Shown here in pieces: positions 7,299 to 23,221 of a stretch of DNA of 29,832 bases; position 1 is the stretch's first letter; the number at the start of each line of letters is the position of its first letter. Both the position numbers and the translations under genes were made by a program. The notes under the pieces are model-generated. The model worked only from the letters and a program-made list of their open reading frames with translations. It had not been told where the DNA came from and did not search any database. Origin of the DNA: Fibrobacterota bacterium (GTDB taxonomy: Bacteria; Fibrobacterota; OXYB2-FULL-49-7; JAEUSG01); the NCBI GenBank assembly GCA_016788315.1, contig JAEUSG010000385.1:1-29832 (forward strand), given 5' to 3'.

Positions 7299-7309
7299 TT
7301 ACCGCCCAT

Positions 7310-7325
7310 TGTTTCACGTGAAACA
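7310..7325. promoter_or_regulatory. parS site (ParB-binding centromere). It is a perfect 16/16 match to the consensus TGTTTCACGTGAAACA.
   Basis: The sequence is tgtttcacgtgaaaca, a palindrome lying 12 nt upstream of the mnmG start codon. Confidence 0.8.
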
Positions 7326-7644
7326 TTCTATGTTTATGATCCTCTGTTATTTATCTGAAAAATACATTTTTTTGATATCTGTTATCGAGTGCTTAATTAT
7401 TGTTTTATCTGGCTTCGAGAGCCTCAGCCAGTTTTTTTCTTTTTGTCGGGCACTGAGCCTGTCGAAGTGCCGTTTTCCCAATATATACATCTGTTATCTC
7501 TAAGAAATCCTCTGGCTTCGACAAGCTCAGCCATCGGAGTAGTTATATTCTTTTTTACACTTTCTAGCACTTAAGGTCTCAAAGGGCCTGTTTCCTTATG
7601 CATATGCTGGCTTCGAGAGCCTCAGCCAACGGAAGAATTAAAAA

Positions 7645-7668
7645 GATCCATCTGTTATTTTTGTAAAA
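7645..7668 (+). repeat. 24-mer iteron-like motif, copy 1 (gatccatctgttatttttgtaaaa).
   Basis: This is a direct read. Related copies lie at 7754-7777, 7897-7920, 8038-8061, 8193-8216 and 8323-8346, with a degenerate copy at 7338-7362. Confidence 0.7.
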
Positions 7669-7692
7669 GATTGTTTTCTTCTCTCCCGTGCC

Positions 7693-7736
7693 CTGAGCGT
7701 AGCCGAAGGGCAATTTCTGGCTTCGGCTACGCTCAG
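7693..7736. repeat. Perfect 16-bp inverted repeat (stem-loop), built from two opposite-orientation copies of the 15-bp element.
   Basis: ctgagcgtagccgaag at 7693-7708 and cttcggctacgctcag at 7721-7736 are exact reverse complements, separated by a 12-nt spacer. Confidence 0.7.
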
Positions 7737-7753
7737 CCAGCGGGCATATTAAA

Positions 7754-7777
7754 GATCCATCTATTATTTCTGTAAAA
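7754..7777 (+). repeat. 24-mer motif, copy 2 (gatccatctattatttctgtaaaa).
   Basis: It matches copy 1 at 22 of 24 positions. Confidence 0.7.
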
Positions 7778-7896
7778 ACTTGTCTTTCTTTCGGGCCCTG
7801 AGGCTCTCGAAGAGCCAAATCCTCATTTTTTAGGATAGGTTTTAGTATCCCAAAATTTTTTATGCCTATTCTAGGGCTTCTTATGAGTTCAAAAAA

Positions 7897-7920
7897 GATC
7901 CCTCTGTTATTTTTGTAAAA
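7897..7920 (+). repeat. 24-mer motif, copy 3 (gatccctctgttatttttgtaaaa).
   Basis: It matches copy 1 at 23 of 24 positions. It is followed by a conserved tail, tattgcgtttttagcgtaatttcagc, shared with copy 6. Confidence 0.7.
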
Positions 7921-8037
7921 TATTGCGTTTTTAGCGTAATTTCAGCGTTTTATTATTTTAATATTTCTTCTTGTTCTTTTATTGATTTTCATTATTCCTT
8001 GCTGGCTTCGAGAACCTCAGCCAGCGGACAACATAAA

Positions 8038-8061
8038 TATCCATCTGTTATTCCTGTAAAA
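8038..8061 (+). repeat. 24-mer motif, copy 4 (tatccatctgttattcctgtaaaa).
   Basis: It matches copy 1 at 21 of 24 positions. Confidence 0.65.
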
Positions 8062-8192
8062 ACATGTCTTTCTCCCGGGCCCTGAGGTTCTCGAAGGGCC
8101 ATTTTCTGTTGGCTGAGCGTAGCCGAAACCAGTATTACTGGAAAAGATCTATTTGCTGGCTTCGAGAGCCTCAGACAGCTAAGAAGTAAAAA

Positions 8193-8216
8193 GATCCATC
8201 TGTTAATTTTGTAATA
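8193..8216 (+). repeat. 24-mer motif, copy 5 (gatccatctgttaattttgtaata).
   Basis: It matches copy 1 at 21 of 24 positions. Confidence 0.65.
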
Positions 8217-8322
8217 ATCAAAATTTGTCTTTCTTTAACTTTTATGAGCTCATTTTTCAAGATAGGTTTTGGTATCCCAAAACTTTTTAAGGCCATTCTA
8301 GGGCCTCTAATGAGGTCAAAAA

Positions 8323-8346
8323 GATCCATCTGTTATTTTTGTAAAA
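8323..8346 (+). repeat. 24-mer motif, copy 6 (gatccatctgttatttttgtaaaa).
   Basis: It is identical to copy 1. It is followed by the tail tattgcgtttttagcttaatttcagc, then parS site 2. Confidence 0.7.
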
Positions 8347-8389
8347 TATTGCGTTTTTAGCTTAATTTCAGCACTTTTTATTATCAATT

Positions 8390-8405
8390 TGTTTCACGTG
8401 AAACT
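8390..8405. promoter_or_regulatory. parS site 2, a 15/16 match (tgtttcacgtgaaact).
   Basis: It shares an identical 16-bp core (ttgtttcacgtgaaac) with site 1, which lies 1080 bp away. It sits between the repeat array and the DnaA-box cluster. Confidence 0.75.
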
Positions 8406-8479
8406 AAGCTTTGAACATCCACTGATTTAAGATCTTTATTTGTATTCAGTATGTATAAACTAAAAACATAAATAGAAAA

Positions 8480-8634
8480 GCATGTTAAAAATGTTGATAA
8501 GTACATAAATGTTGATAAATCAATATCTTGCAATATCTAAATATTGTTGATAACTTTGATTATAAATGTTTATATCTTTTTGATAAAGATTGGTTTATAA
8601 ACATTGTGGATAAGTTCAATAGTTATAAACAAGA
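8480..8634. promoter_or_regulatory. Putative oriC core: a DnaA-box cluster plus an AT-rich unwinding region.
   Basis: Five co-oriented DnaA-box-like 9-mers are present: TGTTGATAA at 8492-8500, 8510-8518 and 8545-8553; TTTTGATAA at 8578-8586; and the perfect E. coli-type TGTGGATAA at 8605-8613. They are interspersed with very AT-rich tracts (ttataaatgtttatatcttttt) and lie immediately beside dnaA. Confidence 0.55.
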
Positions 8635-10025: not shown

Positions 10026-10175
10026 ATGCGTCAGCAGACACTCAACAGAACATCCAACAAGAAGCGGACAACAAAACACGGTTTCCGTAAGAGAATGAAA
10101 ACAAAGAACGGCAGAAAAGTTCTTGCTAACAGACGTAAAAAGGGACGTAAGAAGTTAACAGTTTCTGACGAATAA
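10026..10175 (+). CDS. rpmH: 50S ribosomal protein L34.
   Basis: I translated this by eye. The 49-aa product is [49 protein letters not shown], which matches the L34 family (KRTxxHGFRxRMxTKxGRxVLxxRRxKGRKxL). It is absent from the ORF track because it is under 60 aa. Confidence 0.85.
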
Positions 10176-10187
10176 TTCTTTAAAATT

Positions 10188-10481
10188 TTGAAGCCGACAT
10201 TTCTCGGGAAAAAATTTAGGGGAGAGCTCTTTGATTTTATTATCAGGATTGACAAACAAAAGTCGGTCCTTCAGCTGTTCTTTTCAATATCAAAGAAACA
10301 TTTTAATGCCGTAAAAAGGAACACCATTAAGCGAAGGATAAAAGAGTTTTACAGAACACAATATCCTTCGCTTACAGGTGAACTTCATTATTTTATTAGA
10401 AAGCCTTTTTCTCTTTCAAACAAAGAGATTCTTCGAAACGCAATGAATAAGTCATTAGAAAAGATCATAGAGATTAAATGA
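10188..10481 (+). CDS. rnpA: Ribonuclease P protein component RnpA.
   Basis: The RnpA signature AVKRNTIKRRIKE is present. It sits directly downstream of rpmH as in most bacteria. The start appears to be TTG and its exact position is uncertain. Confidence 0.7.
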   Translation: MKPTFLGKKFRGELFDFIIRIDKQKSVLQLFFSISKKHFNAVKRNTIKRRIKEFYRTQYPSLTGELHYFIRKPFSLSNKEILRNAMNKSLEKIIEIK

Positions 10482-10687
10482 GAAAAGTTCTTATTCTTCT
10501 ATTGAAATTTTACAAAATGGCAATTTCGCCATTCATCGGCAGGGCTTGCATATACGAACCGACATGCTCTGTTTACGCGATGGAGGCAATAAAAAAACAT
10601 GGTCCATTCAAAGGGTTATTGATGTCCGGCTACAGAATATTACGCTGCAATCCGTTCAGCAGAGGTGGTTTTGACCCGGTTGTTTAG
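10478..10687 (+). CDS. yidD: Membrane protein insertion efficiency factor YidD.
   Basis: A YidD/haemolytic-domain motif is present (SPFIGRACIYEPTCSVYAMEAIKKHGPFKG...CNPFSRGGFDPV). The start overlaps the rnpA stop as ATGA. Confidence 0.8.
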   Translation: MRKVLILLLKFYKMAISPFIGRACIYEPTCSVYAMEAIKKHGPFKGLLMSGYRILRCNPFSRGGFDPVV

Positions 10688-12508: not shown

Positions 12509-12664
12509 AATATCTGTGAACAGTGTGTTGCTGATCACAGATTTAACTCGTAAGATTGCCGATACTTATTAGGTCTGTCTCAAGCAGAATTTGAAGATTT
12601 TTCCCTTTTAGTATATATATATGTATGGGGATAGGTTTTTACAGATAAGCTGGAGGGAGATTAG

Positions 12665-15600
12665 TTGAAAAAGTTAGGATTTCTTCTATTTTTTGCCGTT
12701 TTCTGCTATTCAGCAGATTCTACGCACGTATTCTGGAATAAATGTGTAACTAACGGCTATTCAGTTTCATCCAATCCAGGTCCAAATCTGCCTTCCGTTT
12801 CTGTGAAACATGAAGGAATGGTAGCAACAGGCTCATATGATGTTTCGGGGAACTTCGTTAATACAGAATTTAGTCTGGGTTCAGGCCATTATGATAACAG
12901 AGGTAAAAGTTCATTTGTCTGGTTTAAAGATCTCAACCATTTACAGGGAACAGTAACTACTGCAAAACTCAGAGGAGAATATAAAGACGGCTTTTCAGAT
13001 ACAGCATTATGCAGCAATGGCCCCATCTCTCTTCGGGTTGGTATTGTTGATTTTTCACAGAACCTGAATATGATGGGTGGTGAAAGCGGAGTGCCGGAAA
13101 ATGCGGTATGGCAGGATTATGATAATCGCCTGCAGTACGATATGTCCTATTCAAATGGTTTTACAGGACTAATGGCAGAAGACAGTGTAAACATCTCAGC
13201 GTTATCCGGACGGAGCGGCAGATTTATCCGCAGCGTTCTTGATAAACAGTTTTTTGAAATTGATGTTACAAAACAGATCAATTGGATTCTTTCACACACC
13301 GGTTCAAATAAGGGGGGATTCAGCGGTCAATATGCAATTGTATTGCTTTCACCGGTAGGTAAAGGTAGCACTGGCAGGGTAACTCTATACAGTACCGAAG
13401 ATGGCATTTTAGGACCATCTGAAGAGGGGAGTGATTCGGCGTGGACCTCTGATGGAAACACAATCCATCTAGTTGCATCAGGAAATCTCATTCCAGCTGC
13501 CCCGGATACCTTACCCGGGTTCATTTTTGACGTTTGGAACGATGCTGATTCAGCAGCAGTTACTGTAGGTTTAAACAATTTCAAAAAGACAGTAGATTCT
13601 ATCTTTGTTTACAGAGATAGTATATTAATTCATCAACAAAAAAATGAATTCTACCGCATATGGGATGTAAACACCTCTATTTACAAAAATGCTTTTTACA
13701 CTCTTGCCATAAAATATACTGACGCATCAACAGATACATTTTTCAAATATTATAGGGCATATATACCATCCTTTAACGGGTGGTTTAGAAATGACATTCG
13801 CAGAATAGTTATTGATTGGGGATTTTCAGGAGCAAGAACAGATAGTTATGAATTATTCAGAGACGGGGTTAAACTAGGATCTTTTCCAGATTCTGTTCGT
13901 TCATTTACTGATAACGGAGCGGATCCATATCAGGATCACAGATATAAAATGGTCTTTCATTTTGTAAACAATGGGAGAACGGATTCAATTTTTTACAACT
14001 ATCAGGCTGCCATGGCACCGGAACCGGAACTTTGGTGCGGAAACACCTCTCTTCTTCAGACAATGATGTCGGGTAAAGGGGTTGTATATAAACAGAGATA
14101 TAGCACACACCATCGAAATGTAACATCAGTTTCTCTTCCATTTACCATTCCATCCTTTGAGGGAGGAATTTACATAACAGGAAACATAGATTCTATCGGT
14201 TTTGATACTTTGGTTGCTATCGCAGCATACGATACCTGCAGTCATCTTCCCATTTATAAATCTGGACAGGACAATATTGTTTTTGCAGCACTCGATGATA
14301 TAAGCTGGCTTCGCGGTCCTACAATGTGGACCTGGTTTAATCATGCAAGTAAACTTCCATTTGTCAACTGGAATAATGTTCACAAACCAGTAAAGTTTTA
14401 TACGATTTATAGAGATGGAGTTTATGCAGGAACTCCATCGATAAATGATATGCAGTATGCGGATACAACGGCTGATATTTATACAGATCATAATTATCAG
14501 ATGATCATAACATATCAGGACTTTTCTACAGACACATTGAATGCATTATACTCAAGACAGACTCCTCCACAGCCCCAGCCATATTGCGGATCTCCATCTG
14601 TTGCCGGAAATGTTATTTCCACCAAGGGACTGCTATGCCGAATCGGTGGGGATTCACTGTTTCGCCAGGTAACAAATCCAGGGGTACCATTCCCTGCTCC
14701 GAAATCTCCAATGCATACATTGGTTGTGGGTAAAGTTGATTCCATTACGGATACGCTAGTAATTCTCGGGAAAGGGGATAGCTGCGGTTCGCTCTTTTTA
14801 TCAAACGGTAAAGCGGTTGCTGCAAAGTTAAATGAATATAATTACATCCGTGGAGTACAATTCTGGGCTTACTATGATAACTGGCCGAAAAAGGTTAGAG
14901 TTGACTGGACTGGGATAGGTAAATCTGTTAACTACTATGAAATACTCAGAAATTCGGTTAGAGTTGCAACATTTCCAGGCGTTAATGGAACAGGATGGAT
15001 TGACACAGCAGTAAGCCCATATGCGAATTACACGTACAGATTGCGCGTCTTTTTTATGGATTCGACAGCAGATAGCGCTGATGCAGATTATAAGGCAGTT
15101 GCGATTCCTCCTCCTGCTCCATTCTGCGGAACACGGACAGAAGCGCAGAATAGTGTCAATTCAAGAGGGATAACCTGTATTTCAAACCATGATTCACTTT
15201 TGCAGAATGTTTCAATTGCCGGACCTGTATTTCCTGCTCCGAAATCTCCTTCAAATTATTTGATACCTGGAAAAATAGGAACAGCTTCAGACACCTTTGT
15301 AATCCTTGGAAGTGGTGATTCATGCGGTAAGCTTCATTTTGCAAAAGATAGCAAACAGGCCGTAGCAAGGCTTAATGAATACAGCTATATCAGAGGGCCG
15401 ACATTGAATGTATGGTATCATGATGGGATGCAGGTTGTAAAGATTCAGTGGAATGGGATAGGAGGATCTGTTGATTATTTTGAACTTCTGCGCGATGGAC
15501 AGACAATAGTCAGCAATTATAACGGAACATGGAATTATGATGACTATTCAGCGGATGCATTTACAAATCACACATATCTTTTGCGCATATTTAAGAGCGG

Positions 15601-18600
15601 AGTTGCCATAGATTCCTTGACCGCTGGCTATATGGCTAAAAACCCTTATCAGAATCCTGTTGTGTGGTGCGGTTCACCAGGAATTCTGCAGGATACACTA
15701 TCAAGACATGGATCATCGCTTCGTGTACATTGGGATACGTTGCCCATACCTGTTTCAAGAGTGGATAATCCATTTTCAAACAGTAAATATCCTGGTGCAG
15801 TGCTGATGCTGGGTGAGTGGTTTGATAAGGAAAAGAATGTTACAGTAACAGATACAATGGTGGCAATGGGAATTAATGGAAAATGCGCAAGTTTGATAAT
15901 GAGTAAAACAAGTGCAGCATATTTTTGGAGGCTTAAAGACTGCTATATGCTTCAACCTCCCTATTTCTCAGCCTGGTGGCAGCAGGATTCCGGTTTTATA
16001 AGAGTTGAATGGGGAAATTTCAAGCGGCCGGTTGAAGGGTATGTTCTTTACAGGGATACAACGAGAATATATAGCGCTACCGGTACAAATGTCTGGCATT
16101 TCTTTGACAGATCCGGAGTAAAAGAAAATAATTATCAGTATAAGATTCTTGTAAACTACCAGGATTCGACCTCTGAATGGTTTTATGCCAACTACAGCAA
16201 TCAGGGAGGAAACACAGGAAAAGAGATGCCGCCGATCTACTGCGGTACAGATGCTATGCTAACGGCTGCTTTAGCAGGAAAAACGGTGCAGTTCATTGTG
16301 CCGTGGGATTCAGCAGCCAGACCTTTTACCAGAAGCAGCAACCCTTTTCTGCTGCAGGGAACTTCAAATGTTTGGGCTCTCTTAGGAAAAGAGGGCAGCA
16401 ATACGTATTCGGATACTTTTCTCGCTTTAGGCAAAATTGGAACGTGTTCGGATCCTCTTTTTTCTAAAGATATGAAGTCGGTTGTCTTTGCAAGAATTCA
16501 GGAATATCCATTCATCCGTGGACCTAGACTGATGTCATGGTTTTTCTACGACAGCAACTGTGTCTCACTTAACTGGGGCGGATTTCAGGGTACAGTAACT
16601 ACCGCTACACTTTTCAGGGATAATCAGTTTGTTAAATCATTTCCTGGAAGTTCTACATTCTATAATGATTATATGACTGATCCGTCGATAAAACATCTCT
16701 ATGTTCTTATAGTAAAGACAGGAACATCAACAGACACACTATACTCTAATTACAGTAAAGATGGGGACGGCGGCGGAAGTGGAGGAGGCCGTGATTTTAA
16801 TTTTGACGGTAAATGGGGATATGAAGGCTCATATACCTTTAACTTGATGAAAATGACAGGCAACAAGGCAGATTCCGGTAAAAGCGGATATGTTTACAGA
16901 TGGGGTATAAAGAAAGAATCCGTTATAATTGATTCTGTAACAAGACTCCTTCAGACGCCGGTAACGTTTAATGTTTCGTTCAGAAAAATTACTGATGCCT
17001 CTTTTATAAACCTGTTATCATTTTCTGTCAAAAAGGCAGACAGCTGTTATGGATACAATGTGAAGGATACAGTTTTCGGCATAGGAATATATCAGAAAAG
17101 AGTTATTGTTGTAGCTGGGGCAGAAATAGACACTATTTATAATTACTTTACATCAGGAGTAGCAGTTCCGGTCAGCTTAAACAATGTCATATCAATAAAC
17201 CTTTCAAAAATTGCGTCAGTTAATCTTGGAACAAAGAGTACGGCTTTTATAAGCAATTATTCAGAGGATGGAAAATTGCTTCCTGCACCATCCGGGAACA
17301 TGCTGACCTTCAGCCACACTGTGCCGAATGTTAATACTATTTACAAAACAATAAGCTATATAGCAGATGGTCTCCCGTTCGGTCTTATCCTTATGGCTAG
17401 CGGAACTCTTGAAGGGGGTCAGAAAACGCTTTCAGCAGGTCCTGCTAAAGAGGATGGATATGTAACCTTTGACGGGACAGTCAGAATGGAAATTGAAGGA
17501 GAAGGCATACCAAAGAGCGCTTCGGATATGCAGCAATCCGGCAGACAGGATAAAATTCTTTTCTCTTCACTGAGGATATATTCCGGTTCTATGATGGACA
17601 CAGTAAAGCTTCCTCTTGACTCAGGAAAGGTAACATTCAATTCCGGACCCGATCATGCAGGCAAGCGTATCAGTATAAAGGGTATTGATACACTCCTTGG
17701 TATTACAGTTGATGCGCCAGCCGGTCGTGTATTCCATATTGGTGCCTCTGATAAGAGTGTTGTTGGCATAACTAACGGAACGGAGAGTCGATACTATACA
17801 GTTGCTGCAGCGGTTATGGCAGGAGAAAAAACAATTAAACTGCCTGCGGCTGAATATAAGGGAATGCCCATTGCGCTTTATCAAATGGCGGGCATCACAA
17901 TAACAGGTGAAATACAGGGAGAGAAAAAGACTTTAATAGATGCTGATGGAAATGATGCCGGTATATGGCTCAAGGAGGTTGCATCAATAGGAATCAGAGG
18001 AGTATCAGTTCGTAAAGGGAATGTTTCGCTTTCTGCGAATACAGTAAGCGGTATTACATTTGCACAGTGCAGAGTAACAGGCTCGCTTAACGGAGTAGTA
18101 ATATTTGCTCCTGAAGGAGATTCTTTTTCAACACTCAGCCCTAAAACAAAAAATTGCACAATAGAAAACTGCGTTGCTGACAGTATTGCCGGATTTGCCT
18201 TTCTTATAGATAGACCTGTTGATTGCCGTATTGCTAATAATACGGTTGTATCGGCCGTATACGGAGCATATATGGGCCGTGGTGGCAATAGTCGAAAGGT
18301 TTCATTGCCTCTTACCGGTAATACAGCGTCAAATAATATATTCCGAAATTGCAAAGCCGGTTTTGTTCAAGGACTTGATAACAGCATGGACAACATAGGT
18401 TTTACTTATAACGCAAATATATTCCAAAGCTGTGACAGCGGAGCCTTTTCATCAAGTTATACTACTGATCCAGTTTTCCGCACAGTTAGACAGAGTGCTC
18501 CTGCCGGGTGCATTGAAATTGCTGCAAATGAAAATTCAATATCTGCATCTTTCCCGTATATACCCGTTATTGGCAGTTCAGTTCATGATAAAGGTCTTAG

Positions 18601-20230
18601 AACTTCAATGTCGCCTTTAACAGATTTTAGAGGAAGTCCTCGTGTATTGTCAAATTCTTTGGATATCGGTGCCTTTGAACTTTTCGATCTTAGAATGGGC
18701 TTCAATCTTCTAGCTAAAAGAGCGGCAGAAGGCTGTGCCTTTGTCCGGTACACTCTTACTGCACCCGATTCAGGATCCTTTACACAGGTGCAGATGGTTT
18801 TAAAGAAAGATGGTGCTGCTTTTACATCCGGAAAAACAATGCTGGAACAGATGAGTAACAGTACTGTTGTCACCTGGTATCCTCTTGTTCAAGGTTCCTA
18901 TCAATTTGATTTCTCTACAAGATATACATCAACAATGTTTGATACCACATTTACATTAAGCGATACTTTTTCAGTGCAGAACGATGCTTATGTTGTTAAA
19001 GGCGGCCTGTGGAACATGGTTGGTTATGCCGATGCATCGAATACAAAAGTAAAACAGGAGAGCGCAATATCCGCTCTCTCTGATTCCTCTCTTTACGTTT
19101 GGGATCAGACGACAACCTCATACTCCCTTCTTTCATCACAGCCAGATACTTTAGTGCACCGGGGCAGCAGCTATTGGAATATGCCAGATTCAGATGTGAC
19201 TATATCATGGGCACCTGAGGTTTACAGTGCACCGGACACATCCGATTTTATACTCAACCTTAAAGCCGGCTGGAATCTTGTAAGTTCTCCTTTTCCATTT
19301 GCCGTAGCAGTTCCAGGAAAGAAGTTCTGGCACTACGATAACATTTTGGCAGACTACAGAGGATACGATCTTCTGCGTCCCCTTGCCGGAAGCTGGATTC
19401 TTGCAGACAGCAACACTGCAATAACAGTCAAATACAAACCGGGATTCGGAGATACAGCTTTTGCAGCAAAGATTTCGGGAGTTCAGTACAGGAGTTCCTC
19501 CGATTGGTCTATTGCTTTGTTGGCAAATGTAGCTGGTAAAAATCTGGAAGGAAGAATTGCAGGTGTTTCATCTGAAGCAAAAGGATTGCTGGAACCTCTT
19601 CCTCCAATCGGTCCATCAGGTGTTTCTGTCTGGTTCCAGAACGGGAAAGCAGCTGGAGTAAATGCGAAGCTCTTTAAAGAATTGAAAAAGCCTGATAACG
19701 AAAACTATGAATGGATTTTTGTTGTAGAGCCTTCTGGAAGAAAAGGAGAGGTTACAATCAGCGGTGATGGAATAAAGGAACTGGAAGCATTCAAATACGT
19801 TTATGTGGGCAGTCCATCTACAGGCTTTACAGATATAAAGCAGGGTTCTCATACATTTAATTCCGATGGAAAAAGAACAGCTCTTGCACTTATAGTAACA
19901 AATGACAAAGGGATAATGGACAGATATACAGCGGACTTCTCTCTAGCTCAGAATACGCCCAACCCCTTTAACCCTATAACATCAATCTCTTTCTTTGTGC
20001 CGATGTCCTGGGATACAAAAGAGGGTTTCATTTCAAAGGAAAGAACGGTAGAGCTCTCTATTTATGATATAAGAGGAAAGAGAGTTGCTACTCTTTCGAG
20101 AGGTCAATTAGCCGGCGGGAAAATGTATACCGTCAACTACGATGCTAAAAACAGCCCTTCAGGAGTATATTTCTGCAAGCTCGTTTCCGGTAAATATGAA
20201 AGCACCAGAAAGATGCTTCTTGTAAGGTAA
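12665..20230 (+). CDS. Giant (~2521 aa) secreted modular protein with a T9SS C-terminal sorting domain. It has a signal peptide, a ~450-aa N-terminal region, five tandem ~180-aa modules (each a Cys-containing subdomain plus an FN3-like domain), a Gly linker, a right-handed parallel beta-helix (pectate-lyase-like) region and the CTD.
   Basis: It uses a TTG start with a strong GGAGGGAGA Shine-Dalgarno sequence 6-8 nt upstream. The signal peptide is MKKLGFLLFFAVFCYSADS. Tandem modules are marked by (W/Y/F)CG(S/T/N) plus IRGP plus W..G......Y.L.RDG motifs. PbH1-like repeats are present (NNTVVSAVYG..., NNIFRNCKAGF...). The C-terminus (NPFNPITSISF...ELSIYDIRGKRV...SGVYFCKL...TRKMLLVR) fits the T9SS type-A CTD pattern. 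Confidence 0.8.
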   Translation: MKKLGFLLFFAVFCYSADSTHVFWNKCVTNGYSVSSNPGPNLPSVSVKHEGMVATGSYDVSGNFVNTEFSLGSGHYDNRGKSSFVWFKDLNHLQGTVTTAKLRGEYKDGFSDTALCSNGPISLRVGIVDFSQNLNMMGGESGVPENAVWQDYDNRLQYDMSYSNGFTGLMAEDSVNISALSGRSGRFIRSVLDKQFFEIDVTKQINWILSHTGSNKGGFSGQYAIVLLSPVGKGSTGRVTLYSTEDGILGPSEEGSDSAWTSDGNTIHLVASGNLIPAAPDTLPGFIFDVWNDADSAAVTVGLNNFKKTVDSIFVYRDSILIHQQKNEFYRIWDVNTSIYKNAFYTLAIKYTDASTDTFFKYYRAYIPSFNGWFRNDIRRIVIDWGFSGARTDSYELFRDGVKLGSFPDSVRSFTDNGADPYQDHRYKMVFHFVNNGRTDSIFYNYQAAMAPEPELWCGNTSLLQTMMSGKGVVYKQRYSTHHRNVTSVSLPFTIPSFEGGIYITGNIDSIGFDTLVAIAAYDTCSHLPIYKSGQDNIVFAALDDISWLRGPTMWTWFNHASKLPFVNWNNVHKPVKFYTIYRDGVYAGTPSINDMQYADTTADIYTDHNYQMIITYQDFSTDTLNALYSRQTPPQPQPYCGSPSVAGNVISTKGLLCRIGGDSLFRQVTNPGVPFPAPKSPMHTLVVGKVDSITDTLVILGKGDSCGSLFLSNGKAVAAKLNEYNYIRGVQFWAYYDNWPKKVRVDWTGIGKSVNYYEILRNSVRVATFPGVNGTGWIDTAVSPYANYTYRLRVFFMDSTADSADADYKAVAIPPPAPFCGTRTEAQNSVNSRGITCISNHDSLLQNVSIAGPVFPAPKSPSNYLIPGKIGTASDTFVILGSGDSCGKLHFAKDSKQAVARLNEYSYIRGPTLNVWYHDGMQVVKIQWNGIGGSVDYFELLRDGQTIVSNYNGTWNYDDYSADAFTNHTYLLRIFKSGVAIDSLTAGYMAKNPYQNPVVWCGSPGILQDTLSRHGSSLRVHWDTLPIPVSRVDNPFSNSKYPGAVLMLGEWFDKEKNVTVTDTMVAMGINGKCASLIMSKTSAAYFWRLKDCYMLQPPYFSAWWQQDSGFIRVEWGNFKRPVEGYVLYRDTTRIYSATGTNVWHFFDRSGVKENNYQYKILVNYQDSTSEWFYANYSNQGGNTGKEMPPIYCGTDAMLTAALAGKTVQFIVPWDSAARPFTRSSNPFLLQGTSNVWALLGKEGSNTYSDTFLALGKIGTCSDPLFSKDMKSVVFARIQEYPFIRGPRLMSWFFYDSNCVSLNWGGFQGTVTTATLFRDNQFVKSFPGSSTFYNDYMTDPSIKHLYVLIVKTGTSTDTLYSNYSKDGDGGGSGGGRDFNFDGKWGYEGSYTFNLMKMTGNKADSGKSGYVYRWGIKKESVIIDSVTRLLQTPVTFNVSFRKITDASFINLLSFSVKKADSCYGYNVKDTVFGIGIYQKRVIVVAGAEIDTIYNYFTSGVAVPVSLNNVISINLSKIASVNLGTKSTAFISNYSEDGKLLPAPSGNMLTFSHTVPNVNTIYKTISYIADGLPFGLILMASGTLEGGQKTLSAGPAKEDGYVTFDGTVRMEIEGEGIPKSASDMQQSGRQDKILFSSLRIYSGSMMDTVKLPLDSGKVTFNSGPDHAGKRISIKGIDTLLGITVDAPAGRVFHIGASDKSVVGITNGTESRYYTVAAAVMAGEKTIKLPAAEYKGMPIALYQMAGITITGEIQGEKKTLIDADGNDAGIWLKEVASIGIRGVSVRKGNVSLSANTVSGITFAQCRVTGSLNGVVIFAPEGDSFSTLSPKTKNCTIENCVADSIAGFAFLIDRPVDCRIANNTVVSAVYGAYMGRGGNSRKVSLPLTGNTASNNIFRNCKAGFVQGLDNSMDNIGFTYNANIFQSCDSGAFSSSYTTDPVFRTVRQSAPAGCIEIAANENSISASFPYIPVIGSSVHDKGLRTSMSPLTDFRGSPRVLSNSLDIGAFELFDLRMGFNLLAKRAAEGCAFVRYTLTAPDSGSFTQVQMVLKKDGAAFTSGKTMLEQMSNSTVVTWYPLVQGSYQFDFSTRYTSTMFDTTFTLSDTFSVQNDAYVVKGGLWNMVGYADASNTKVKQESAISALSDSSLYVWDQTTTSYSLLSSQPDTLVHRGSSYWNMPDSDVTISWAPEVYSAPDTSDFILNLKAGWNLVSSPFPFAVAVPGKKFWHYDNILADYRGYDLLRPLAGSWILADSNTAITVKYKPGFGDTAFAAKISGVQYRSSSDWSIALLANVAGKNLEGRIAGVSSEAKGLLEPLPPIGPSGVSVWFQNGKAAGVNAKLFKELKKPDNENYEWIFVVEPSGRKGEVTISGDGIKELEAFKYVYVGSPSTGFTDIKQGSHTFNSDGKRTALALIVTNDKGIMDRYTADFSLAQNTPNPFNPITSISFFVPMSWDTKEGFISKERTVELSIYDIRGKRVATLSRGQLAGGKMYTVNYDAKNSPSGVYFCKLVSGKYESTRKMLLVR

Positions 20231-20279: not shown

Positions 20280-23078
20280 TTATCTCACAGACAAAACTCT
20301 TGCTGTAACAGATTTATTTCCGGCAGTCAGTTTATAGAAGTAAACTCCAGCTGCGCTCTTTGTTCCATCCCATGAGAATGTGTGATATCCTGCCTTGAGA
20401 GATCCTGAAGTAATCTGCTTAATAATACGGCCACTCGGATCAACAACTGTGAGTGTTACCATTTCAGCCTGGGGAAGAGATACTCCTATACGGCACATTC
20501 CGTTAAATGGATTTGGAGAAACAGAAAGGGCTAGCTGACCCTTTACTAATAGATTTCTTGATGCTTTGGTGCTCATAGAGGGAACATTATCAAGAACGAA
20601 GTTCTTTTTAAAACGGTTTATCATTATGTTGCCTGGATCGGTAGCGTAGATATAATCATCAGTCGCATTGACACAAAAAGGGTATGCCATGTAGCACTTC
20701 CCTGCAGTATTTGCAGCTCCTGCCAATTCATCAGCAACATTTGCAATGTTTCCATAAGTACCGAATCTTGCAGTTCTGTTTCCTTCATTATCAATAACGG
20801 AAATTTTCTGGAAGGGGCCGTTTGGAACATAGAGCCTTCCCCATGCGTCCATGCCGAAAGAGGCGGTCATGCAGTCGCAAATTGACATTGTGCCTCCTCC
20901 AAGCTGACCAAGATCGACATCGTAGCTTTTATCCGGGCCTGTCGGCTTTGCAGTAAAGAGTTCGCCGTCAAGCGTTCCCTTTGCATTATAACGCTGAATT
21001 GATCCTGAGCTTTTCAGGAATGAGGGGTCGCTTGTAATTACAGAGGGTAGTCCGGTACCTGTGCTTTTAATAGGCTTTCCAACGTAAAGATTACCTTTTA
21101 AGTCAAAAGAGACTCCGCCGCCGCCGACTTTGATATCATCTATAAGAATGAGCCGTCTTATTGCTGACTGCGTGTCGCTGATCGGAAAATAGCGGACGGC
21201 AGTGGGAGTTAAGCCGATATATGGAAGTGCAGTCATCGTTACGAGGTGACCGTTGGGAGCGACAGCAATTCCAAAATCTGCAGTACCTACGCTCATTGTA
21301 CCGCGTACACAGTAGGAGTCGACCACTGTGTTTGAGCCGGTCCTGCTTAAAGGAGCAGGAGTGAGGTAATTACCGTTAAATGTAAATCTGTTTACGTTTC
21401 CTTCAAAAGGTCCCCGTACGCCTATTTGACGCAGAAAGAGATTTCGTCTTAATGGATCAACAGTAAGTTCATAGCCGTTCAGAGGCGCTTTTACTCCGGT
21501 TGCAGATAGTGTTGAGCATGGCACAAAGGATGGATTACTCCAGTCGGAAATTTTATGAACCTGTGTACCGGAGGAAACTACATAAGCTGTTTCTGTCTTA
21601 GGATCAACAGAGATTCGCTTGATAGTGGGTGTTCCTGTTTGAGAAAGTTTAGCGAAAGTTTTGTATTCAGTAAACAGAGATCCATTTTCCTTAAATAGTT
21701 TGATGCCGCCCATCCGATATGCAAACCAGATAATGGTTCCTTCCAAAGATTCTGTAACTGTCAAATAACTTCGATCATACCAGCCATTCTGTAGATAGCT
21801 TTGACCTCCACCAGCAGGAGCAATACTTGTCTTAATAGACAAAGCAGTATCAGTGCGCCAATTGGCTATTTTGTACAAAAAGAGTCCGATTGAAGAATGA
21901 CGGCCCGTTGCATAAACAGCACCTGTTTCCTTGTGATATGCTATATCATCAGGATAGGAGGCTTTAAAGTTTTTTATAAGCGTTCCATTTTTATCAATAA
22001 CCATAATTCTTCCGTGAAGGCGGTCGCATGCAAAGACATATCCTGAGTCATCTATTGCTGTGCCATGAATATAAGATTGATTGGCGGAGTTGCTGGCTTT
22101 AAGAGTATCAAGACTGAAAAAAACTGTAGGTGTACGTGTAGCAATGTCAACTTTAAAAATTCTGCCTTCACGGTAGAAGCCGGTATCTGTATTGTTAGAG
22201 AGGCCGCTCATAAGAAAATAGGAGCGATCGGGAGAACCGGTAAAAAATCTCGGCTGACTGAAATATCTGAAAGGGATTGTGCCGAGGGATTTTGAAGAAG
22301 CTACTGTAGCTTCGGAGCATGTTCCATCCTCATTTATTGTCCAGATGGTGTTCTGGTATTCATGCAGAAAACCAAGCTGACCGGCAGCAGGAGACATGAG
22401 AAACTGCGGACGGCATCCAAATACGCCCATCGGTGCATTAGACATTAAAGGTCCATAGAAATCCTTTGTTTTCGGAGAGTATTCATTCGTTGATACAAGA
22501 TTCAGCCCCCATCCGAGATAATTTGATGAAGGTTTGTCTCCGGGAATTGGAAAGATGGTTTTTAAATAACTGCCTGTTGCGCTGAATTGTCGGACAACAG
22601 TTGCGGCAACACTGTTGGGCAGATAACATAGAAAGATAGATCCGTCAGAACCTTTTGAAAATCCGTAAAAACTTGTTCCGGCAACATCATTTTGACCACT
22701 CCAGTGATAAGGGTCACCTCCGACTGCTTTGTCCAGGCTGACACTCATTCCGGCACGAACACGAACGGACATGTTTTCAGGAGAGGGAACAGGATTGCGA
22801 TAATCGTCCAGACCATCCCAGATAATTGTCTGCGATAGAGATGATGGTGTAAGCGGCAGGGGAGGATTGGCTCCTAGAACACCAGCTGCAAGGTGGCGGA
22901 CACAGCTGTTTGTTGCCTTATTGACAATAGATACTTCAACATCAGTATATTCACTTACTGTGAATTCAATCTTCCAGGTTGAACCGGCATCTTTTACAAA
23001 AGTTGGAGAGGTGGTGAATTGCAGAGAGAGGGCAAAAGCTGGAAGCAGTAAAAGAAATAAGGCAGGTATTTTTCTCAT
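20280..23078 (-). CDS. Secreted ~932-aa protein with an N-terminal Ig-like/FlgD-like beta-sandwich, a predicted beta-propeller region and a T9SS C-terminal sorting domain.
   Basis: The likely start is the ATG at 23076-23078 (MRKIPALFLLLLPAFALS signal peptide), with AAGGAG 7 nt upstream. The ORF-track start at 23123 adds 15 residues that are not signal-like. The C-terminus (LSVSPNPFNGMCRIGVSL...TLTVVDPSGRII...SWDGT...AGVYFYKL...ARVLSVR) fits the T9SS CTD. Confidence 0.75.
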   Translation of the reverse strand: MRKIPALFLLLLPAFALSLQFTTSPTFVKDAGSTWKIEFTVSEYTDVEVSIVNKATNSCVRHLAAGVLGANPPLPLTPSSLSQTIIWDGLDDYRNPVPSPENMSVRVRAGMSVSLDKAVGGDPYHWSGQNDVAGTSFYGFSKGSDGSIFLCYLPNSVAATVVRQFSATGSYLKTIFPIPGDKPSSNYLGWGLNLVSTNEYSPKTKDFYGPLMSNAPMGVFGCRPQFLMSPAAGQLGFLHEYQNTIWTINEDGTCSEATVASSKSLGTIPFRYFSQPRFFTGSPDRSYFLMSGLSNNTDTGFYREGRIFKVDIATRTPTVFFSLDTLKASNSANQSYIHGTAIDDSGYVFACDRLHGRIMVIDKNGTLIKNFKASYPDDIAYHKETGAVYATGRHSSIGLFLYKIANWRTDTALSIKTSIAPAGGGQSYLQNGWYDRSYLTVTESLEGTIIWFAYRMGGIKLFKENGSLFTEYKTFAKLSQTGTPTIKRISVDPKTETAYVVSSGTQVHKISDWSNPSFVPCSTLSATGVKAPLNGYELTVDPLRRNLFLRQIGVRGPFEGNVNRFTFNGNYLTPAPLSRTGSNTVVDSYCVRGTMSVGTADFGIAVAPNGHLVTMTALPYIGLTPTAVRYFPISDTQSAIRRLILIDDIKVGGGGVSFDLKGNLYVGKPIKSTGTGLPSVITSDPSFLKSSGSIQRYNAKGTLDGELFTAKPTGPDKSYDVDLGQLGGGTMSICDCMTASFGMDAWGRLYVPNGPFQKISVIDNEGNRTARFGTYGNIANVADELAGAANTAGKCYMAYPFCVNATDDYIYATDPGNIMINRFKKNFVLDNVPSMSTKASRNLLVKGQLALSVSPNPFNGMCRIGVSLPQAEMVTLTVVDPSGRIIKQITSGSLKAGYHTFSWDGTKSAAGVYFYKLTAGNKSVTARVLSVR

Positions 23079-23221
23079 AAAAACGCTCCTTGAAAGAATT
23101 GCCGGAAAAATCGTACAATACAACTGTTATATGATTTTAAGTTAAACTAAAAGAACTTAAAATTCCTGTAAAATACGAACCAAAACATGTAAGAAAAGTA
23201 CAAAATGGTTTTATCTATTAA

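What the first reader, a model, noticed from the sequence alone, without database searches (positions are those of the whole stretch)
12665..20230. A 7.5-kb gene encodes a giant modular T9SS cargo protein directly downstream of yidC
A single TTG-initiated ORF, with a strong GGAGGGAGA Shine-Dalgarno sequence, encodes ~2521 aa. It has a signal peptide and a ~450-aa N-terminal region. It has five tandem ~180-aa modules beginning at about nt 14034, 14585, 15125, 15667 and 16238. A Gly-rich linker (GDGGGSGGG) lies at about 16760-16790. A right-handed parallel beta-helix region of the kind seen in pectate lyases, adhesins and phage tailspikes follows, with a further beta-rich region behind it. It ends in a T9SS type-A C-terminal sorting domain. 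Such proteins are typically surface-attached adhesins or polysaccharide-active enzymes. Its size, repetitive module architecture and location right beside the core origin cluster are notable. The diverged but still recognisable nucleotide repeats could mediate module gain or loss; for example cctgctccgaaatctcc occurs at about 14690 and 15232.
Basis: partly seen in the sequence, partly recalled or inferred. Interest (0 to 1): 0.6.

Follow-up and report, generated by a model that had tools for sequence, protein, structure and literature searches.

The report
Giant modular T9SS surface protein
This is a real 2,521-residue gene from an uncultured Fibrobacterota bacterium encoding a huge secreted surface protein (sugar-binding-like head, long repetitive stalk, beta-helix base, type IX secretion tail), an ordinary kind of protein from a rare family that contains one undescribed domain.

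Summary
A single uninterrupted TTG-initiated ORF (12665-20230, +) encodes 2,521 aa, and its T9SS type-A C-terminal domain passes the curated cut-offs of both PF18962 and TIGR04183. Collinear homologues rule out a frameshift or fusion artefact.

The anatomy can be refined:
- a signal peptide;
- a ~265-aa beta-sandwich head whose best fold matches are the DNRLRE/CBM96 carbohydrate-binding modules (fold level only);
- a stalk of 7 divergent FN3 domains interleaved with 5 copies of a ~100-aa two-cysteine domain that has no Pfam, PDB-sequence or fold assignment;
- a Gly-rich linker;
- a ~1,150-aa C-terminal unit of conserved length, containing a short right-handed beta-helix, a choice-of-anchor-Q cap, a pre-CTD segment shared with other T9SS cargo, and the CTD.

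Only about five representative proteins among 1.84 billion share the two-domain module. Stalk length (1 to at least 7 modules) and head type vary between them.

The position next to yidC is not conserved. The modules are only ~50 % identical at nucleotide level, so present-day recombination between them is unlikely.

Most likely function: a C-terminally anchored, T9SS-delivered surface fibril that binds, and possibly cleaves, glycans. It is a new member of a known kind and of modest interest.

The parts
12652..12660 (+). Shine-Dalgarno-like GGAGGGAGA, 4 nt upstream of the TTG start
   Evidence: Read directly from the sequence.
12665..20230 (+). Whole gene: 2521 codons plus stop, TTG start. NCBI protein MBL8027080.1, 'right-handed parallel beta-helix repeat-containing protein', Fibrobacterota MAG.
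12665..12715 (+). Sec signal peptide (MKKLGFLLFFAVFCYS|A, aa 1 to ~16/17). No lipobox.
   Evidence: Sequence inspection. In homologues the mature part begins 2-4 residues before the conserved HVFW motif. Inferred; no dedicated predictor was run.
12716..13519 (+). N-terminal 'head': ~265-aa beta-sandwich (aa ~18-285) with a DNRLRE/CBM96-like fold, pI 5.0
13520..13762 (+). FN3-like unit 1 (aa 286-366)
   Evidence: Local HMM, 25.7 bits.
13766..14011 (+). FN3-like unit 2 (aa 368-449)
14012..14317 (+). Cys-domain 1 (aa 450-551)
14318..14560 (+). FN3-like unit 3 (aa 552-632)
14561..14854 (+). Cys-domain 2 (aa 633-730). Contains the 17-mer at 14693-14709, which encodes PAPKSP.
14855..15100 (+). FN3-like unit 4 (aa 731-812)
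15101..15397 (+). Cys-domain 3 (aa 813-911). Contains the 17-mer at 15233-15249.
15398..15640 (+). FN3-like unit 5 (aa 912-992)
15641..15955 (+). Cys-domain 4 (aa 993-1097)
15959..16204 (+). FN3-like unit 6 (aa 1099-1180). Weak PF18370 RGI_lyase beta-sheet hit here.
16214..16522 (+). Cys-domain 5 (aa 1184-1286)
16523..16762 (+). FN3-like unit 7 (aa 1287-1366)
16763..16789 (+). Gly-rich linker GDGGGSGGG (aa 1367-1375). A Gly/Asn-rich linker sits at the same place in all family members.
16790..17779 (+). First part of the conserved C-terminal unit (aa 1376 to ~1705). Family-specific, no assignment.
   Evidence: Alignment A3. No Pfam or PDB hit.
17780..18694 (+). Right-handed parallel beta-helix (aa ~1706-1965) with a choice-of-anchor-Q cap (aa 1970-2006)
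   Evidence: NosD E 0.008 at aa 1758-1928. NF041518 25.2 bits against cut-off 25. PF13229 above cut-off in P0015, P0017 and P0066 at the aligned position. Asn ladders NNT and NNIF are invariant.
18695..19162 (+). Post-helix segment (aa ~2011-2166). Family-specific, unassigned.
   Evidence: Alignment A3.
19163..19939 (+). Pre-CTD segment (aa ~2167-2425), shared with otherwise unrelated T9SS cargo
   Evidence: 27 % identity, E 2e-27, to the L003 1415-aa LamG/BACON/FlgD_ig protein. Partial-range matches in L006-L008, L041 and L052.
19940..20227 (+). T9SS type-A C-terminal sorting domain (aa ~2426-2521), pI 9.8
   Evidence: PF18962 28.8 bits against 27 at aa 2432-2517. TIGR04183 25.5 bits against 23. 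pI.

Best explanation
The gene encodes a ~275-kDa cell-surface fibril delivered by the type IX secretion system.

Proposed pathway. Steps 1-3 are inferred from the established T9SS type-A pathway and were not shown here.
(1) The N-terminal signal peptide takes the precursor across the inner membrane through Sec.
(2) It folds in the periplasm. The two invariant cysteines of each of the five Cys-domains probably form a disulfide.
(3) The basic C-terminal type-A CTD is recognised by the T9SS translocon. It is then cleaved by the PorU-type sortase, and the new C-terminus is linked to anionic LPS.

Because the anchor is C-terminal, the conserved ~1,150-aa unit (beta-helix plus flanking domains) sits nearest the outer membrane. 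The 12-domain FN3/Cys-domain array acts as a stalk. On a textbook estimate of 3-4 nm per Ig-like domain, it would be tens of nm long. The DNRLRE/CBM96-like beta-sandwich is then presented at the distal tip as the ligand-binding head, most likely for a glycan.

Across the family the base is conserved, while stalk length and head type are swapped. That is the design logic of a reach-and-bind adhesin or glycan-capture protein. Whether the beta-helix base is also catalytic (a lyase or hydrolase) is unresolved.
For: Shown:
- An intact ORF with a unique start.
- CTD HMMs above their curated cut-offs and a basic CTD, pI 9.8.
- An adjacent convergent 947-aa gene that also carries FlgD_ig and a Por_Secre_tail match just under the cut-off (26.4 bits against 27).
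- The head has 12 homologues, most of them just 'head + T9SS CTD'. It is therefore an autonomous surface-displayed module.
- The family comparison shows a C-unit of 1146-1171 aa in all members at 32-75 % identity. Cys-domain copy number runs from 1 (P0066) through 3 (P0016, P0017) and 5 (this protein) to at least 7 (P0014). Heads are mosaic and non-homologous.
- All three other full-length members have a signal peptide and a CTD.

From the literature:
- The multidomain alginate lyase Dp0100 combines CBM96 with six FN3 modules (PMC9971899).
- Fibrobacter is proposed to anchor its surface enzymes through T9SS CTDs (PMC6851124).
Against: - No T9SS machinery gene lies in the 29.8-kb window, and the rest of the genome could not be examined.
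- The CTD scores clear their cut-offs by only ~2 bits.
- The head's CBM96 similarity is fold-level only, at 8-10 % identity. The DNRLRE HMM hits 1 of 13 family members at E 0.084.
- The head is acidic (pI 5.0). CBM96 binds polyanions through a Lys/Arg groove, so the ligand is unknown and could even be non-glycan. The same fold also occurs in TGF-beta prodomains and BamH.
- The conserved part of the family is the beta-helix base, not the head. That would also fit an enzyme whose catalytic domain is the base.
- Disulfides, CTD cleavage, anchoring and stalk geometry are all inferred.
- Type-A cargo can also be released rather than anchored.
Confidence: 0.55

Rival explanations
1. It is a surface-anchored or secreted polysaccharide-degrading enzyme. 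In this reading the conserved beta-helix in the C-terminal unit is the catalytic domain (a pectate/alginate-type lyase or a GH28/GH55-like hydrolase). The CBM96-like head and the FN3 array serve as substrate-targeting and spacer modules, as in multimodular CAZymes.
For: - Beta_helix, NosD and choice-of-anchor-Q assignments.
- The beta-helix base is the most conserved part of the family, with invariant Asn ladders and invariant D464, D534, D549 and K380 in A3 numbering.
- CBM96-type modules and FN3 arrays occur in polysaccharide lyases (PMC9971899).
- Weak hits to the RGI-lyase beta-sheet domain, and the top module hit is the FN3 domain of pectate lyase Pel3.
- Fibrobacter exports glycanases through T9SS.
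Against: - No hit to any catalytic CAZyme family in Pfam or NCBIfam.
- No sequence relative in the PDB. The profile search gave only 8wm1 at E 0.008.
- The head lies ~1,400 residues and 12 domains away from the helix, which is unusual for a CBM that serves a catalytic domain.
- Heads are swapped for unrelated domains in the relatives.
- No CAZyme or polysaccharide-utilisation genes lie next to it, either here or in L002.
- No catalytic signature could be recognised without a structure of this part.
Confidence: 0.3
2. It is a structural cell-surface component, either an S-layer-like coat or a gliding-motility adhesin of the SprB/RemA type. In this reading the repeats form a filament and the protein has no specific glycan ligand.
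For: - Size, repetitive stalk and T9SS CTD.
- DNRLRE domains were first described in archaeal S-layer and disaggregatase proteins (PMC9971899).
Against: - SprB-type adhesins use type-B CTDs, whereas this is type A.
- No sequence similarity to SprB, RemA or S-layer families was reported by Pfam or NCBIfam.
- To my knowledge gliding machinery has not been described in Fibrobacterota.
- The family is very rare, with ~5 representatives. That is unlike a core envelope component.
Confidence: 0.1
3. The long ORF is an assembly or frameshift artefact that fuses several genes, or it is a decaying pseudogene.
For: - It comes from a metagenome-assembled contig seen only once.
- Internal repeats are a classic source of mis-assembly.
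Against: - There is no stop in 2,521 codons.
- The repeats are only ~50 % identical at nucleotide level, so they cannot mislead an assembler.
- P0015 is collinear at 69 % identity over 1,957 aa. Three full-length homologues have the same order, signal peptide then head, stalk, linker, C-unit and CTD.
- Composition is uniform across the gene.
Confidence: 0.02

Closest known systems
T9SS type-A cargo proteins (Por_Secre_tail, TIGR04183/PF18962), e.g. P. gingivalis gingipains and Fibrobacter succinogenes surface glycanases with the BTD/Fpm-1 CTD
   Same: N-terminal Sec signal plus a basic ~90-aa C-terminal beta-sandwich sorting domain that passes both HMM cut-offs. The source is a Fibrobacterota organism. 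Another CTD protein lies next door.
   Different: The passenger has no recognisable catalytic domain. It is far larger than typical cargo. The CTD carries a ~15-aa insertion between its first strands, and some relatives also match FlgD_ig.
CBM96 / DNRLRE domain (7vbo, alginate-binding TM6-N4 of Dp0100; 8wab, chondroitin-sulfate-binding CBM)
   Different: Only 8-10 % identity, and the NF033679 HMM is not met. The head is ~265 aa against ~180 aa. It is acidic (pI 5.0) and has its own invariant motifs (VLDKQFFEIDVT, PWT.DGNT.H) in place of the Lys/Arg groove. The ligand is unknown.
Giant repetitive surface adhesins with distal ligand-binding domains (T9SS SprB/RemA of Flavobacterium; T1SS RTX adhesins such as MpIBP/SiiE), cited from general knowledge
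   Same: Same design logic: a membrane-proximal anchor, a long array of Ig/FN3-like extender domains and a lectin-like distal module.
   Different: No sequence homology was detected. SprB uses a type-B CTD. RTX adhesins use T1SS and are anchored at the N-terminus. Here the extender alternates FN3 with a novel Cys-domain.
Right-handed parallel beta-helix proteins (PF13229 Beta_helix / NosD / CASH; pectate-lyase fold) with a choice-of-anchor-Q cap (NF041518)
   Same: Typical start motif (YYTV.EAV.AGE..I.L..Y.G...GITITG...T.IDG), Asn ladders and a C-terminal DF.G.PR...DIGA.E cap. The HMMs pass in homologues.
   Different: It is short, at about 260-300 aa. It has no match to any characterised lyase or hydrolase family and none to PHROGs tailspikes. 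It is embedded in a conserved 1,150-aa unit whose other parts are unassigned.

Membership tests
T9SS type-A cargo (Por_Secre_tail) | C-terminal ~70-100-aa sorting domain matching TIGR04183 / PF18962 above the curated cut-off, at the extreme C-terminus | tested here: met
   PF18962 28.8 bits against 27 (aa 2432-2517). TIGR04183 25.5 bits against 23 (aa 2456-2518). The protein ends at aa 2521.
T9SS type-A cargo (Por_Secre_tail) | N-terminal Sec signal peptide | tested here: met
   MKKLGFLLFFAVFCYS|A has an n-region, an h-region and small residues at -3 and -1. The homologues are conserved only from the mature start. This was judged by inspection, not with a predictor.
T9SS type-A cargo (Por_Secre_tail) | Host genome encodes T9SS machinery (SprA/Sov, PorK/L/M/N, PorU, PorV) | not testable with these tools
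   Only the 29.8-kb contig is available, and none of its genes is a T9SS component. The genome-collection scan did not recover this MAG. Indirect support: a neighbouring second CTD protein and published T9SS use in Fibrobacter.
T9SS type-A cargo (Por_Secre_tail) | CTD cleaved and passenger attached to A-LPS or released | not testable with these tools
   Needs proteomics or biochemistry.
CBM96 / DNRLRE domain (NF033679) | Beta-sandwich fold superposable on 7vbo/8wab | tested here: met
CBM96 / DNRLRE domain (NF033679) | Sequence match to the DNRLRE_dom HMM | tested here: not met
   No hit for this protein at E <= 1. One of 13 family members hits at E 0.084.
CBM96 / DNRLRE domain (NF033679) | Basic (Lys/Arg) binding groove and binding of an acidic polysaccharide | tested here: inconclusive
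   The head is acidic overall (pI 5.0). Its invariant residues are D, E, N, T, H and W rather than K or R. The groove was not mapped on the model and binding cannot be tested here.
Fibronectin type III (PF00041) | Seven-strand beta-sandwich of FN3 topology | tested here: met
Fibronectin type III (PF00041) | Sequence match to the PF00041 HMM | tested here: not met
   No fn3 hit at E <= 1 in this protein. The module profile does hit proteins whose repeats are PF00041, so homology is supported transitively.
Right-handed parallel beta-helix (PF13229 / pectin-lyase fold) | Match to the Beta_helix or related HMM | tested here: inconclusive
   In this protein there is only NosD at E 0.008, below its cut-off, and TIGR03804 at E 0.62. 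PF13229 is above its cut-off at the aligned position in the orthologue P0015 (27.7 bits), P0017 (30.4) and P0066 (40.4).
Right-handed parallel beta-helix (PF13229 / pectin-lyase fold) | Predicted or solved beta-helix structure | not tested
Polysaccharide lyase / GH28-type enzyme | Match to a catalytic family model, or a recognisable catalytic residue constellation | tested here: not met
   No catalytic family in Pfam or NCBIfam. The PDB profile search was negative apart from 8wm1 at E 0.008. dbCAN was not available and the residue geometry was not assessable.
Choice-of-anchor Q domain (NF041518) | HMM match above cut-off directly after a beta-helix | tested here: met
   25.2 bits against cut-off 25, aa 1970-2006. 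The motif DF.G.PR...DIGA.E is invariant in the family.

The most novel reading that the evidence does not exclude
The ~100-aa two-cysteine domain (invariant C...DT...C) always alternates with FN3 units. Among the proteins examined it occurs only in this family. It may be a new ligand-binding or rigidifying domain class. The conserved 1,150-aa C-terminal unit may be a new family of surface glycan-active machinery: a beta-helix enzyme, or an anchor platform specific to T9SS in Fibrobacterota-like phyla. Together they would define a previously undescribed type of 'variable head / variable stalk / conserved base' T9SS surface fibril.
Probability: 0.25. Interest if true: 0.5.

Novelty: new member of a known kind. 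Interest (0 to 1): 0.3.

Why it matters
Giant T9SS cargo proteins determine how FCB-group bacteria attach to and process particulate substrates. This one gives a clean example of modular design: a conserved membrane-proximal base, an extensible FN3/Cys-domain stalk and interchangeable heads. It comes from an uncultured Fibrobacterota lineage.

It also flags three uncharacterised sequence families that could be added to the domain databases:
- a CBM96-like head that also exists as small stand-alone T9SS proteins;
- the Cys-domain;
- a pre-CTD segment shared among T9SS cargo.

No established idea changes, and its position beside the replication-origin gene cluster appears incidental.

Tried and rejected
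- Whole-protein word-index search found only the protein itself. For a giant query the candidate list fills with chance word matches.
- The same tool on aa 1372-2431 found nothing, not even the parent protein. I treat that as a tool artefact, because the exhaustive profile search later found homologues covering this region.
- phmmer of both halves against PDB sequences gave no hits. The C-unit profile against the PDB gave only 8wm1 at E 0.008, a generic beta-helix stretch.
- The Cys-domain profile against the PDB hit only the designed propeller 'Scone'. That score sums three identical 7-bit repeats, each with an individual E of ~41, so I rejected it as chance. Pfam found nothing for 18 Cys-domain copies.
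- The genome-contig scan returned only a CTD-level hit in a Cloacimonadota MAG. An exact-protein contig look-up found no record. The rest of the source genome, and hence its T9SS genes, could therefore not be examined.
- The metagenome scan was dominated by CTD-only matches. Only L002 carries the full C-unit.
- PHROGs gave no hit, so the phage-tailspike origin is rejected.
- The promoter and terminator scans around the gene were uninformative: counts equalled the shuffle expectation and no terminator was found at either end.
- Tandem Repeats Finder found no nucleotide-level tandem repeat.
- A lipoprotein reading was rejected, because there is no lipobox before Cys14.
- A functional link to yidC or oriC was rejected, because the context is not conserved in L002.
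Full report
OBSERVATION

The window carries one uninterrupted ORF at 12665-20230 on the + strand: TTG start, 2,521 codons. GGAGGGAGA sits at 12652-12660. An in-frame TAG directly precedes the TTG. The next possible start (Met52) would remove a hydrophobic signal peptide and the motif THVFW, which is conserved in a dozen homologues. The TTG is therefore the only credible start.

The public record for this exact protein is MBL8027080.1, 'MAG: right-handed parallel beta-helix repeat-containing protein [Fibrobacteres/Fibrobacterota bacterium]'. Its contig is 29,832 nt long, so the contig is the window itself.

CONTEXT

The gene lies at the edge of a classical origin cluster:
- parB, parA, gidB and gidA on the minus strand;
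- a 1.3-kb AT-rich repeat-filled gap;
- dnaA on the minus strand;
- rpmH, rnpA, yidD and yidC on the plus strand;
- then the giant gene.

Downstream and convergent is a 947-aa protein that also carries a FlgD_ig match and a Por_Secre_tail match just under the cut-off. Next come zwf, pgl, an SPFH protein, a cupin and a sigma-54 activator. None of these is a T9SS component or a CAZyme.

The only family member for which I could recover DNA context is L002, which encodes P0066. It sits between a radical-SAM (SPL-like) gene and a PLP-dependent decarboxylase, with no yidC nearby. The position beside yidC is therefore not a property of the family, and I regard it as incidental. The promoter and terminator scans were uninformative.

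ANATOMY

(i) Signal peptide, aa 1 to ~16 (by inspection).

(iv) Gly linker GDGGGSGGG, 16763-16789.

(v) C-terminal unit, aa 1376-2521. It is 1,146-1,171 aa long in all five aligned family members, at 32-75 % identity. It contains:
- an unassigned ~330-aa segment;
- a short right-handed beta-helix with the typical start motif and Asn ladders, where NosD is sub-threshold in this protein but PF13229 is above its cut-off in P0015, P0017 and P0066;
- a choice-of-anchor-Q cap, 25.2 bits against a cut-off of 25;
- an unassigned ~155-aa segment;
- a ~260-aa pre-CTD segment that is 27 % identical (E 2e-27) to the equivalent part of an otherwise unrelated LamG/BACON T9SS cargo protein;
- the type-A CTD, with PF18962 at 28.8 against 27 and TIGR04183 at 25.5 against 23 and a pI of 9.8.

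PHROGs gives nothing, so there is no support for a phage tailspike origin.

FAMILY

An exhaustive HMMER search with the module profile over 1.84 billion representatives found 3,760 hits. Only five match the complete two-domain module: P0014, P0015, P0016, P0017 and P0066. A broader 18-copy Cys-domain profile finds that domain in no other of the 150 listed proteins.

P0015 is an N-terminally truncated orthologue, 69 % identical and collinear over 1,957 aa. P0016, P0017 and P0066 are full-length, each with a signal peptide and a CTD, and are ~30 % identical over the stalk-to-CTD part.

Domain counts:

| Protein | FN3 units | Cys-domains | Note |
|---|---|---|---|
| P0066 | 2 | 1 | full-length |
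| P0016 | 6 | 3 | full-length |
| P0017 | 7 | 3 | full-length |
| this protein | 7 | 5 | full-length |
| P0015 | at least 5 | at least 4 | N-terminally truncated |
| P0014 | at least 14 | at least 7 | fragment |

The heads are mosaic. None of the relatives has the CBM96-like head. P0016 and P0066, P0016 and P0017, and P0017 and P0066 each share a different head segment. The family therefore has a conserved base, a stalk of variable length and interchangeable heads. These collinear homologues also dispose of the frameshift or fusion-artefact hypothesis.

REPEAT DYNAMICS

It is simply the codons for a conserved PAPKSP. The modules are ~50 % identical at nucleotide level, and the longest shared run is 9-17 nt. 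Tandem Repeats Finder finds nothing. From general knowledge of RecA minimal processing segments (about 25 nt or more), homologous recombination between modules is not expected now. The P0015 orthologue aligns one-to-one with modules 2-5, so the duplications are old. Copy-number variation in the family shows that gain and loss has occurred over evolutionary time.

MECHANISM

Inferred steps: Sec export, periplasmic folding, CTD-dependent passage through the T9SS, CTD removal and C-terminal attachment to anionic LPS. This pathway is established for type-A cargo and has been proposed for Fibrobacter surface enzymes (PMC6851124).

Because the anchor is C-terminal, the conserved beta-helix unit is membrane-proximal. 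The 12-domain array is then a spacer and the CBM96-like sandwich is the distal tip. Together with head swapping and the variable stalk length, this points to a reach-and-bind adhesin or glycan-capture fibril (confidence ~0.55).

The main rival is an enzyme whose catalytic domain is the beta-helix (confidence ~0.3). In its favour, the base is the most conserved part of the family, and CBM96-plus-FN3 architectures occur in lyases. Against it, no catalytic family or signature was detectable. The head is also separated from the helix by ~1,400 residues. The two readings are not mutually exclusive.

A structural or gliding-adhesin role (~0.1) and an artefact (~0.02) are less likely.

VERDICT

The protein is a new member of a well-known kind, the giant modular T9SS surface cargo. 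It belongs to a very small family and carries at least one undescribed domain. Interest is modest, at 0.3.

The most novel reading the evidence does not exclude is that the Cys-domain and the conserved C-unit define a new class of T9SS surface fibril or glycan-active machinery. I give that a probability of ~0.25 and an interest of ~0.5 if true.

Noticed in passing
window 7299-8634: The 1.3-kb AT-rich gap between gidA and dnaA (both on the minus strand) is packed with iterated repeats. A ~41-nt unit (AAAAAGATCCATCTGTTATTTTTGTAAAA...) occurs 6 times at 109-155-nt spacing. A 22-nt element, CTGGCTTCGAGAGCCTCAGCCA, occurs 5 times directly and also in inverted copies. There are duplicated 71-86-nt blocks as well. 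Four DnaA-box-like TTATC[CA]ACA sites cluster at 8492-8613, and the cumulative GC skew turns nearby. This is probably oriC with iteron-like or REP-like elements. There is no Rfam hit.
   Followed up: partly
window 20280-23123 (-): A 947-aa protein, convergent with the giant gene across a 49-bp gap, also ends in a T9SS-type CTD (FlgD_ig 38.4 bits; Por_Secre_tail 26.4 bits, just under the cut-off of 27). The remaining ~860 aa have no family assignment. The exact sequence from the TTG start is not in the protein collection.
   Followed up: partly
L083/L084 3352-11122 and L082 8771-16198: The small stand-alone 'CBM96-like head + CTD' proteins sit in runs of several consecutive T9SS-CTD genes. In Candidatus Raymondbacteria the run lies downstream of a sulfatase and an AraC regulator. 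An unannotated ~380-aa gene lies immediately upstream in both contexts.
   Followed up: no
window 19163-19939; L003 9870-10976: The ~260-aa pre-CTD segment is shared by otherwise unrelated T9SS cargo (LamG/BACON protein in L003; partial matches in L006-L008, L041 and L052). It contains a motif twice: 'GWN[LM][VI].SP..F ... Y.WD ... G..YW'. It has no Pfam family and may be a conserved CTD-proximal module in FCB-group candidate phyla.
   Followed up: partly
window 10026-10687: Two small genes below the 80-aa ORF filter complete the canonical cluster: rpmH (L34, 10026-10175) and yidD (10478-10687). The yidD ORF overlaps the end of rnpA by 4 nt. Both were identified by reading the translations, not by an HMM.
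   Followed up: no
tool behaviour: The word-index homology search with aa 1372-2431 failed to return even the identical parent protein that the same database holds. Negatives from that tool on this protein should not be trusted.
   Followed up: yes
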